A stretch of DNA of 64,000 nt, from the NCBI RefSeq assembly GCF_056712565.1, contig NZ_CM160072.1, one strand, 5' to 3'. Positions 28,101 to 31,100 of this stretch are shown one piece after another. Numbering within the stretch: position 1 is the stretch's first letter; every line of letters starts with the position of its first letter. The position numbers were made by a program.

Positions 28101-31100
28101 ACCAGTTCTGATGGCAGCGCAGGTAAGTTGAAAGTGAGCAATGCAAGCCTGAAGGGTGTTTCCGTTAACACTGGATTTACGTCAGGAACAAGTGCGACTT
28201 CTGTTACATTCGATAATGTGGTTCAAGGTAACAATCTTACGGATGCTGATACCATTACATCGACCTCTGTCGTGTGGAGCGCACAAGGTAACACCGATGC
28301 TAATGGCAACGTAGACGTCACGATGACCAAAAACGCCTATACGGATGTTGTGACGGATTCTTCAGTTAATAATGTCGCTCAGGTACTGGATACGGGTTAC
28401 ACCAATAACGACCTGTACACTAGTCTGAACGTAGGAACGACTGCTGAACTGAACAGTGCGCTGAAACAAATTAGCGGCAGCCAGGCAACAACGGTATTTA
28501 ATGAAGCACGAGTGTTAAGTAACCGCTTCAGCATGTTGTCCGATGCAGCACCGGAAGTTGCAAACGGTCTGGCCTTCAACGTGGTAGCGAAAGGCGACCC
28601 GCGTGCTGAACTGGGTAACGACACACAGTACGACATGATGGCGCTGCGTAAATCTCTGACGCTGACTGAACATCAGAACCTGAGTCTGGAATACGGGATT
28701 GCTCGTCTGGAGGGTAATGGTTCAGATACCGCAGGCGATAACGGAGTGACAGGCGGTTACAGCCAGTTATTCGGTCTGAAACACCAGATGGCCTTTGACA
28801 ACGGTATGAACTGGAATAACGCCCTGCGTTATGATGTGCACCAGCTCGACAGCAGTCGCTCGATAGCTTACGGCGACGTCAACAAAACCGCTGATGCTAA
28901 TGTGAAACAACAGTACCTGGAGTTCCGTAGTGAAGGAGCAAAAACCTTTGAGCTGCGTGAAGGGCTGAACGTCACTCCATATGCCGGGGTTAAACTGCGT
29001 CACACACTGGAAGGTGGCTATCAGGAACGCAATGCGGGTGACTTTAACCTGAGCATGAACAGCGGCAGCGAAACGGCGGTGGACAGCATCGTTGGGCTGA
29101 AACTGGACTATGCAGGGAAAGAAGGCTGGAGTGCGAACGCCACGCTGGAAGGTGGGCCGAATCTGAGCTATGTGAAAAGTCAACGTACTGCGAGTATTTC
29201 GGGCGCTGGAAGCCAACGTTTTAACATTGACGATGGTCAGAGTGGCGGTGGTTTCAACAGCCTGGCGACGATGGGTGTGAAATACAGCAGCCAGGAAAGT
29301 GCGTTGCAGGTAGATGCATTCCACTGGAAAGAAGACGGCATCAGTGATAAAGGTGTGATGCTAAACTTCAAGAAAACGTTCTAATTTTTAGCATGTAATA
29401 CATAAACCGCAACGCTGATACAGGTTGCGGTTTTTTTATTGCCGGATGCGGTGCTTGACGTGTCTTAACCTTTCTGGGGTTTCGTGTCTTTCAGGGCAAC
29501 AGTACAACTCATCCCGCAATCTTGTTTACACCCTCGCATTATTTATCTCTATTCATTTCTATACTGATTTTTCTTAATCCGTTTTATTACAGGGCAGGGT
29601 GCGATGAGCAGCAACACATTTACTCTCGGTACAAAATCCGTTAACCGTCTTGGTTATGGCGCGATGCAACTGGCTGGTCCTGGGGTTTTTGGCCCCCCAA
29701 GAGATCGCCACGTCGCTATAACCGTGCTGCGCGAGGCGCTGGCATTGGGCGTCAATCATATTGATACCAGCGACTTTTATGGTCCGCACGTCACCAATCA
29801 GATTATCCGCGAAGCGCTTTATCCGTACTCTGACGACCTGACAATTGTCACTAAAATTGGTGCGCGGCGTGGAGAGGACGCTTCCTGGTTACCCGCATTT
29901 TCTCCGGCAGAGCTGCAAAAAGCGGTACACGATAATCTACGTAATCTCGGCCTGGACGTACTGGATGTGGTTAACCTGCGCGTTATGATGGGGGATGGTC
30001 ATGGCCCAGCGGAAGGATCGATTGAGGCCAGCCTGACAGTGCTGGCGGAGATGCAACAACAAGGCCTGGTAAAACATATTGGCCTGAGTAACGTCACACC
30101 GACGCAGGTTGCAGAGGCGCGAAAGATTGCCGAAATCGTCTGCGTGCAGAACGAATACAACATTGCCCACCGTGCTGATGACGCAATGATTGATGCTTTG
30201 GCTCGTGATGGCATTGCCTACGTGCCATTCTTTCCGCTCGGGGGCTTTACGCCGCTGCAATCCTCCACGCTTTCCGATGTTGCTACGAGCCTGGGTGCAA
30301 CACCAATGCAGGTGGCGCTGGCGTGGCTGTTACAACGTTCACCGAATATTTTGTTGATTCCTGGAACATCTTCTGTTGCGCATTTACGGGAGAATATGGC
30401 TGCTGAAAAATTGCATCTTTCTGAGAAAGTGTTGTCTACGTTGGATGGTATTTCGCGAGAATAACGAATATACAAAAGGGAAAGATGCATTTCCCTTTTG
30501 TTTCTTTTTTAATGGCATGGAGTGCATATGTTTAAGGCCAGGATTTGCGGCTGGATAATCAGTGAAAAGGCGATGGATTCATTGATTCGTACAGTGATAG
30601 ATGGTATCTCACTGATATCCAGACGGTAATCAAACAGATGTGTAGGGCATTCATCCACCACATCTTGATATATTCCGAATTTACGTTGATGCTGCGCGTT
30701 GTGATATCTCCGCCGTCGGAATTGATGCACCATAGAGCAAACTGAATATCACGGAATGATAAATGACGCTCTACCAGATAAAACCGCTCTTTCAGTCGCT
30801 GTTAAGGCCGACGATGTTTTGGCTTTATAAGCACCATGTTACAGCGAATCACATCACTCTTGCTGCACTGGCGCTTTCTCTTCTTACCGGATTGCTGTTG
30901 GTGTTGGTGGCACAACCCATCCTCTTTTTGCTATTGCCCATCGTGCTTTTTATCCGTATGACGCTCAATGCGCTGGATGGCATGTTGGCGCGTGAGTGCA
31001 ATCAGAAAACACGTCTGGGGGCGATTTTGAATGAAACTGGCGATGTTATTTCCGATATTGCGCTCTATTTACCGTTTTTATTTTTACCGGAAAGTAACGC

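What the first reader, a model, noticed from the sequence alone, without database searches (positions are those of the whole stretch)
30465..30762. ydbD absent between ydbC and ynbA
ydbC is followed by a clean terminator and then ynbA 300 bp later. In K-12 a roughly 770-codon gene (ydbD) lies between them, as I recall. No remnant ORF is seen in the gap.
Basis: partly seen in the sequence, partly recalled or inferred. Interest (0 to 1): 0.25.

Follow-up and report, generated by a model that had tools for sequence, protein, structure and literature searches.

The report
Old ydbD deletion scar, lineage-typical
The gene ydbD really is missing between ydbC (pdxI) and ynbA here, because most of it was deleted long ago, leaving its first 10 codons and probably its last dozen; about 9% of complete E. 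coli genomes share this ordinary polymorphism.

Summary
pdxI/ydbC (29604-30464) is followed by a hairpin and T-run terminator (30472-30501), then ynbA (30763-31368). K-12 has the 768-codon ydbD between them.

One detail is wrong: the gap is not free of remnants. The ydbD ribosome-binding site, ATG and first 10 codons survive at 30519-30557. They are 28/30 identical to K-12 and 30/30 to Escherichia whittamii.

The next 106 nt (30558-30663) do not BLAST to K-12. They align by position with the last 13 codons of ydbD plus the downstream spacer of E. whittamii (z 3.9 to 6.2 against shuffles). The simplest reading is an in-frame loss of codons 11-755 (2235 nt), followed by small indels and drift.

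E. whittamii has pdxI-ydbD-ynbABC, so the gene is ancestral and this window is the derived state.

Among 5426 complete E. coli genomes:
- The same scar is in 482, including ATCC 11775, UTI89, IHE3034 and Nissle 1917.
- ydbD is present in 3991.
- A separate, larger deletion (pdxI next to azoR) is in 643.

Rfam, Pfam and RNA folding found no sign of a new gene or RNA in the gap, and the sequence is single-copy, so it is not a mobile element. This is an ordinary gene-loss polymorphism of low interest.

The parts
29604..30464 (+). pdxI (ydbC), pyridoxine 4-dehydrogenase, intact
   Evidence: 286-aa ORF. It is 95.6% nt identical to K-12 pdxI and is annotated pdxI in the matching RefSeq genomes.
30472..30511 (+). 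intrinsic terminator of pdxI (12-pair hairpin 30472-30501, then TTCTTTTTTA)
   Evidence: Terminator scan. The same hairpin is present in K-12 and in all the alleles aligned.
30519..30557 (+). 5' relic of ydbD: GGAG ribosome-binding site (30519-30522), ATG (30528) and codons 1-10
   Evidence: The alignment to K-12 runs without a break from pdxI to 30557 and stops exactly after codon 10. blastn gives 28/30, E 1.7e-6. The relic is 30/30 identical to the E. whittamii ydbD start.
30558..30585 (+). probable 3' relic of ydbD: codons for I756-M761 (ATCAGTGAAAAGGCGATG), a 14-nt gap, then GATTCATTGA holding the former TGA stop (30583-30585)
   Evidence: MAFFT alignments with K-12, three other E. coli ydbD alleles and E. 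whittamii. The 18-mer is 14/18 identical to E. whittamii (16/18 in the S3 subtype), and the following 10-mer is 10/10. Positional alignment of the whole 106 nt scores z 3.9 (window) and 6.2 (S3 subtype) against 2000 shuffles.
30586..30762 (+). former ydbD-ynbA spacer, strongly diverged; 30664-30762 still aligns to K-12
   Evidence: BLAST alignment to K-12 resumes at 30664, which is K-12 position 72 nt past the ydbD stop. It is 82% identical in the first 100 nt and rises to 93-99% in ynbA.
30528..30629 (+). 33-codon relic ORF that starts at the ydbD ATG and ends at TAA (MFKARICGWIISEKAMDSLIRTVIDGISLISRR); no evidence that it is a gene
   Evidence: Read from the sequence. No Pfam match. No feature is annotated over the gap sequence in any of the 40 listed rows (of 482 matching genomes). 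In my reading of the alignment, 5 substitutions separate the two subtypes, 3 of them amino-acid changing.
30763..31368 (+). ynbA, CDP-alcohol phosphatidyltransferase family, intact; first gene of ynbABCD
   Evidence: 201-aa ORF. It is 96.7% nt identical to K-12 ynbA and carries that annotation in RefSeq.

Best explanation
The gap is the scar of an old internal deletion of ydbD. ydbD encodes a 768-aa protein with a C-terminal DUF2773 domain that RefSeq now names a bactofilin. The gene sat between pdxI and ynbA in the ancestor of E. coli.

In one haplotype, codons 11 to 755 (2235 nt, in frame) were lost. Codon 10 (ATA) was joined to the Ile codon of the C-terminal '...IREQAM...' motif. The stub was then no longer under selection. 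It picked up a 14-nt deletion and many substitutions, so the part after codon 10 no longer aligns with K-12 by BLAST.

The scar is inherited. It is the normal state of a large E. coli lineage that includes the type strain ATCC 11775, UTI89, IHE3034 and Nissle 1917. From my own knowledge these are phylogroup B2 strains of the ST73/ST95 kind. A second subtype, 93% identical, is found in other backgrounds.

Shown:
- the absence of the gene
- the 5' relic
- the population frequency
- ydbD at this position in an outgroup species

Inferred:
- that the 106 nt are the 3' relic plus the old spacer
- the exact right-hand breakpoint
- that the loss is neutral or weakly selected
For: - K-12 has pdxI, ydbD (2307 nt), ynbA.
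- The window matches K-12 up to 30557, which is codon 10 of ydbD, and again from 30664.
- tblastn and blastn with ydbD find only the first 10 codons in the whole window.
- E. whittamii has pdxI-ydbD-ynbA-ynbB-ynbC. Its YdbD is full length and 85.5% identical to K-12 YdbD, and PdxI, YnbA, YnbB and YnbC are 80-92% identical to the window's proteins. So ydbD at this site predates E. coli.
- The window's pdxI, ynbA and ynbB are ordinary E. coli alleles: 95.6-96.7% identical to K-12 and about 82% to E. whittamii.
- The 106-nt stretch aligns by position with the E. whittamii ydbD 3' end plus spacer. 3 of 2000 shuffles reach the score for the window and 0 of 2000 for the S3 subtype. That is as good as K-12 against E. 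whittamii over the same stretch (z 3.1).
- The scar sequence is single-copy and is found in 482 of 5426 complete genomes.
- The contiguous pdxI-ynbA arrangement is in 522 genomes, and ydbD is in 3991.
- The two scar subtypes have no indels between them and share the same left junction, which points to one event.
Against: - No ydbD-bearing allele with a 3' end close to the scar was found. The 106 nt are only weakly similar to any present E. coli ydbD 3' flank (z 1.2-1.7 against K-12 and WP8).
- The 3'-relic reading therefore rests on one outgroup sequence and on short matches.
- About 100 nt differ very strongly between two E. coli haplotypes whose flanking genes differ by 4%. Drift alone does not explain this well. 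The spacer seems to evolve unusually fast, because E. whittamii also stops aligning with E. coli 23 nt before the ydbD stop.
- The exact right-hand breakpoint and any microhomology cannot be fixed without the progenitor allele.
Confidence: 0.88

Rival explanations
1. The window shows the ancestral state, and ydbD was inserted between pdxI and ynbA in the lineage leading to K-12 and most other E. coli.
For: - ynbABCD-like clusters in Citrobacter, Hafnia, Buttiauxella, Serratia, Snodgrassella and others have no ydbD upstream.
- The 106 nt of the gap have no BLAST-level match in K-12.
Against: - The gap keeps the ydbD ribosome-binding site, ATG and exactly the first 10 codons. An insertion would have had to land precisely after a pre-existing start.
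- E. whittamii, a separate species with about 82% nt identity in the flanking genes, has a full-length ydbD at the same position.
- The 106 nt resemble the 3' end of that gene.
- In the other genera the ynb cluster is not next to pdxI either, so they say nothing about this junction.
Confidence: 0.04
2. Deletion plus replacement: ydbD was lost and 106 nt of unrelated DNA were put in its place. The source could be filler DNA from repair, or a fragment of a mobile element or of another locus.
For: - BLAST finds no match between the 106 nt and the 2348 nt they replace in K-12. A local alignment scores no better than shuffles.
- The left junction is abrupt.
Against: - The 106 nt occur once per genome, and only at this locus, in 482 genomes. 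There is no second copy anywhere in 5426 E. coli genomes at blastn word-11 sensitivity, so they are not an IS or MITE, nor a copy of another E. coli locus.
- They align in the expected order with the ydbD 3' end and spacer of E. whittamii, well above shuffles.
Confidence: 0.07
3. Assembly or sequencing artefact: ydbD was collapsed out of this record.
For: None.
Against: - The same junction is present in 482 to 522 independent complete genomes from many laboratories.
- It exists in two sequence subtypes.
Confidence: 0.01

Closest known systems
E. coli K-12 pdxI(ydbC)-ydbD-ynbABCD locus (b1406-b1411)
   Same: Same flanking genes in the same order and orientation, the same pdxI terminator and the same ydbD translation start.
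   Different: 2235 nt of the ydbD coding sequence (codons 11-755) are missing. The last codons and the spacer before ynbA are strongly diverged.
The identical scar in E. coli ATCC 11775, UTI89, IHE3034, Nissle 1917 and about 480 other complete genomes
   Same: 99-100% identical over the scar in 396 genomes. The window is 99.988% identical to ATCC 11775 (CP033092.2) over 40 kb.
   Different: Nothing at this locus. A second subtype (83 genomes, for example strain S3) is 93% identical in the scar and has different flanks.
pdxI-azoR deletion haplotype (for example strain WP3-S18-ESBL-08)
   Same: Another loss of ydbD at the same locus, also common: 643 of 5426 genomes.
   Different: An independent and larger event. 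It removes the 3' end of pdxI (similarity to the window ends at pdxI nt 797), ydbD and all of ynbABCD, and places pdxI next to azoR.
Escherichia whittamii pdxI-ydbD-ynbABC
   Same: Same synteny. Its ydbD start is 30/30 identical to the relic, and its ydbD 3' end and spacer are the best match to the 106-nt stretch.
   Different: It has a full-length ydbD. The flanking genes are only about 82% nt identical.

Membership tests
ydbD / DUF2773 protein gene (intact or pseudogene) | Coding sequence with the C-terminal DUF2773 domain (Pfam PF10971). K-12 YdbD matches at residues 688-768. | tested here: not met
   K-12 YdbD hits PF10971 at 9e-46. The relic ORFs of the gap have no Pfam hit. tblastn with YdbD finds only residues 1-10.
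ydbD / DUF2773 protein gene (intact or pseudogene) | Position between pdxI and ynbA with the ydbD translation start | tested here: met
   The ribosome-binding site, ATG and 10 codons at 30519-30557 are colinear with K-12 and E. whittamii. It is therefore a remnant, not a gene.
Rho-independent terminator (after pdxI) | G+C-containing hairpin directly followed by a T-run, just after a stop codon | tested here: met
   12-pair stem at 30472-30501, then TTCTTTTTTA, 8 nt after the pdxI stop. It is conserved in K-12. Function was not tested.
Mobile element footprint (IS or MITE excision or insertion) | Multiple copies in the genome | tested here: not met
   The 131-nt query over the scar hits exactly one place per genome in 482 genomes and nowhere else.
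Mobile element footprint (IS or MITE excision or insertion) | Terminal inverted repeats and a target-site duplication | not tested
   I did not run the repeat finder on the gap. No transposase-like ORF has a Pfam match.
Small RNA or cis-regulatory RNA in the gap | Match to a curated RNA family, or a fold more stable than shuffles | tested here: not met
   The only Rfam match is the terminator hairpin scoring 25.9 bits against a 92-bit threshold. The fold z-score is -1.28.

The most novel reading that the evidence does not exclude
The ydbD-minus and ydbD-plus haplotypes may be an old polymorphism that selection has kept across E. coli lineages. The two scar subtypes differ by 7% in the scar, and about 100 nt next to it are almost unalignable between the haplotypes. 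Under this reading, loss of YdbD would be adaptive in the extraintestinal-pathogen and commensal B2 lineages. Two routes are possible: the ynbABCD lipid-metabolism operon now sits 235 nt from the surviving ydbD start signals, or a 33-residue peptide is made from the relic ORF.
Probability: 0.05. Interest if true: 0.3.

Novelty: already known. Interest (0 to 1): 0.07.

Why it matters
It matters little. It is one more presence/absence difference between K-12 and the B2-type E. coli, and it can be seen in the public annotation of hundreds of genomes.

Its practical uses are minor:
- as a lineage marker, since three common states exist at this locus
- as a caution that YdbD, a poorly understood protein for which Price et al. 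2016 (PMC5053530) reported a fitness effect in K-12, is dispensable in nature, because about a quarter of complete genomes lack it
- as an example of how fast a gene stub and its spacer become unrecognisable

Tried and rejected
- Local alignment of the 106 nt against the whole replaced K-12 segment and the whole E. whittamii ydbD, both strands. Scores were no better than shuffles, except for a 17/20 match at the very 3' end of the E. whittamii gene (11 of 200 shuffles as good). That match led to the positional test.
- tblastn of YdbD against the gap gave some short matches, for example FIDSYYD against FIDSYSD at E 0.22. I rejected it as chance. Its DNA is the stretch that aligns, in another frame, with the end of the E. 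whittamii gene and the start of its spacer, and it is out of order for residue 140.
- Strain A24 (armadillo) looked like a divergent third scar type at 72% identity. Its record has frameshifts in four of the six genes annotated in the stretch shown, and the differences are scattered deletions, so I took it to be a low-quality assembly and did not use it.
- The 74-aa ORF on the minus strand (30509-30733) has no Pfam match and no annotated feature in any listed genome. I rejected it as a gene.
- Searching for ydbD in the literature returned mostly Bacillus ydbD and unrelated hits. Nothing dealt with this deletion.
- The scan of one genome per species returned only E. whittamii among the Escherichia. 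E. coli itself and the other Escherichia species were not returned, so they could not be used as outgroups.
- I ran no further search on this finding, because the answer would not change the verdict.

Full report
**What is in the sequence**

The ORF at 29604-30464 (286 aa) is pdxI, formerly ydbC. The ORF at 30763-31368 (201 aa) is ynbA, followed by ynbB and ynbC. Between them lie 298 nt. Eight bases after the pdxI stop there is a 12-pair hairpin (30472-30501) followed by TTCTTTTTTA. The terminator scan reports it, and K-12 has the same hairpin.

**Comparison with K-12**

In a K-12 record the order is pdxI, ydbD (2307 nt, 768 aa, named 'DUF2773 domain-containing bactofilin' by RefSeq), ynbA.

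- A word-7 blastn of window 30300-30900 against that K-12 stretch gives two colinear blocks.
- The left block runs from pdxI through the terminator to window 30557, which is the 30th base of ydbD.
- The right block starts at window 30664, which is 72 nt past the ydbD stop in K-12.
- So 2348 nt of K-12 correspond to 106 nt here.
- tblastn with K-12 YdbD and blastn with its DNA find only those first 10 codons in the whole 64-kb window. The gene has not moved elsewhere in the window.

The ydbD ribosome-binding site (GGAG, 30519-30522), its ATG (30528) and codons 1-10 are intact. They are 28/30 identical to K-12 and 30/30 identical to Escherichia whittamii. In all four ydbD-bearing comparators, similarity stops exactly after codon 10. 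From this ATG a 33-codon relic ORF runs to TAA at 30627-30629. A retained start followed by a break inside the coding sequence is what a deletion leaves, not what a site that never held the gene looks like.

**Which state is ancestral**

I scanned one genome per species with YnbA as the anchor, then ran tblastn on the flanks.

- E. whittamii has pdxI-ydbD-ynbA-ynbB-ynbC. Its YdbD is full length and 85.5% identical to K-12 YdbD, and its PdxI, YnbA, YnbB and YnbC are 80-92% identical to the window's proteins.
- The window's pdxI, ynbA and ynbB are ordinary E. coli alleles: 95.6-96.7% nt identity to K-12 and about 82% to E. whittamii.
- ydbD at this position therefore predates E. coli, and the window shows the derived state.
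- In other genera (Citrobacter, Hafnia, Buttiauxella, Serratia, Snodgrassella and others) the ynb cluster is not next to pdxI. Those genera are uninformative for this junction.

**What the 106 nt are**

They are single-copy. A blastn word-11 search of 5426 complete E. coli genomes finds them once per genome, only at this locus, in 482 genomes. They are therefore not a mobile element or a copy of another E. coli locus.

They do not resemble the replaced K-12 segment in a free local alignment. Multiple alignments with the ydbD 3' end and downstream spacer place them in order:

- ATCAGTGAAAAGGCGATG (30558-30575) aligns with the codons for I-R-E-Q-A-M near the C-terminus. It is 14/18 identical to E. 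whittamii, and 16/18 in the S3 subtype.
- A 14-nt gap follows.
- GATTCATTGA (30576-30585) then aligns 10/10 with the last codons and TGA stop of E. whittamii ydbD.

I also ran a global alignment of the 106 nt against only the positionally equivalent stretch of E. whittamii.

| Comparison | z | Shuffles reaching the score |
|---|---|---|
| Window vs E. whittamii | 3.9 | 3 of 2000 |
| S3 subtype vs E. whittamii | 6.2 | 0 of 2000 |
| K-12 vs E. whittamii (same stretch) | 3.1 | 6 of 2000 |
| Window vs K-12 or another E. coli allele | 1.2-1.7 | not significant |

I conclude, with moderate confidence, that the 106 nt are the diverged tail of ydbD plus the old ydbD-ynbA spacer. On that reading the event removed codons 11-755 (2235 nt, in frame), and later small indels account for the remaining 7 nt of length difference.

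This spacer evolves fast in general. E. whittamii also stops aligning with every E. coli allele 23 nt before the ydbD stop.

**How common it is**

| Locus state | Complete E. coli genomes (of 5426) | Source |
|---|---|---|
| ydbD matched | 3991 (3834 with at least 80% of the gene) | |
| Scar sequence of this window | 482 | |
| pdxI and ynbA in one contiguous match | 522 | |
| pdxI directly next to azoR | 643 | |

- Of the 482 scar-bearing genomes, 396 are 99-100% identical in the scar. They include ATCC 11775, UTI89, IHE3034, ST95-32 and Nissle 1917. From my own knowledge these are phylogroup B2.
- Another 83 carry a subtype 90-95% identical, such as strain S3.
- S3 has a K-12-like PdxI protein and different upstream genes. 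It shares the same left junction and has no indels relative to the window's scar. This points to a single origin followed by divergence and recombination into other backgrounds.
- In the pdxI-azoR state, ydbD and all of ynbABCD are gone. This locus is simply a variable one.

**Is anything new hidden in the gap**

- Rfam gives only the terminator hairpin, at a sub-threshold score.
- The gap folds no better than shuffles (z -1.28).
- No sigma-70-like promoter is found by the consensus scan.
- Neither the 33-codon relic ORF nor the 74-codon minus-strand ORF has a Pfam match.
- No feature is annotated over the scar in any of the 40 listed rows (of 482 matching genomes).
- In my reading of the alignment, the two scar subtypes differ in the relic ORF by 3 amino-acid-changing and 2 silent substitutions, which looks neutral.

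**What was lost**

K-12 YdbD has a strong C-terminal DUF2773 match (9e-46) and a sub-threshold bactofilin match at residues 78-138. Its function is not established. Price et al. 2016 (PMC5053530) list ydbD and ynbB among very weakly expressed K-12 genes whose disruption affected fitness in minimal glucose medium. About a quarter of complete genomes lack the gene, so it is dispensable in nature.

**Verdict**

This is an ordinary, old, lineage-typical deletion that is already visible in public annotations. It has low interest.

Noticed in passing
window 10545-50675: This stretch is 99.988% identical to E. coli ATCC 11775 (CP033092.2). It differs by only 3 substitutions (15355, 36734, 50479) and 2 one-base indels. 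The window therefore comes from the type strain or a very near relative.
   Followed up: yes
window 21070-29384 (break near 25526): The large ydbA-like autotransporter is split into two ORFs (21070-25545 and 25560-29384). The window lacks one A that is present in CP033092.2, where the gene is a single 8316-nt CDS. This is either a real frameshift or a homopolymer sequencing error in one of the two records.
   Followed up: partly
window 17539-20178 (indel at 19955): ydbH is an intact 879-aa ORF here but is annotated 'frameshifted' in CP033092.2, which lacks one T at this position. It is probably an error in that assembly.
   Followed up: partly
window 21727-25161: The autotransporter gene contains long internal tandem repeats. 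Self-similar blocks are offset by multiples of about 441 nt and are 85-94% identical.
   Followed up: no
L004 5001-6512 (strain WP3-S18-ESBL-08) and 642 other genomes: A separate deletion haplotype at the same locus. pdxI has an altered 3' end and is followed directly by azoR, and ydbD and ynbABCD are all missing. It is found in 643 of 5426 complete genomes.
   Followed up: partly
L008-L033, L040 (Citrobacter, Hafnia, Buttiauxella, Serratia, Snodgrassella, Orbaceae and others): ynbA-ynbB-ynbC homologues (about 60-78% aa identity) occur as a cluster in scattered genera, including bee-gut Snodgrassella and Orbaceae. An extra gene-sized gap of about 640 nt separates ynbB from ynbC, and pdxI and ydbD are not upstream. 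The pattern suggests horizontal spread of the ynb cluster.
   Followed up: no
window 20700-21070 versus K-12: In the matching ATCC 11775 annotation, ydbL is followed directly by the autotransporter gene. From my recollection of the K-12 map, the fea/tynA/paa genes lie between these two genes there. I did not check this with the tools.
   Followed up: no
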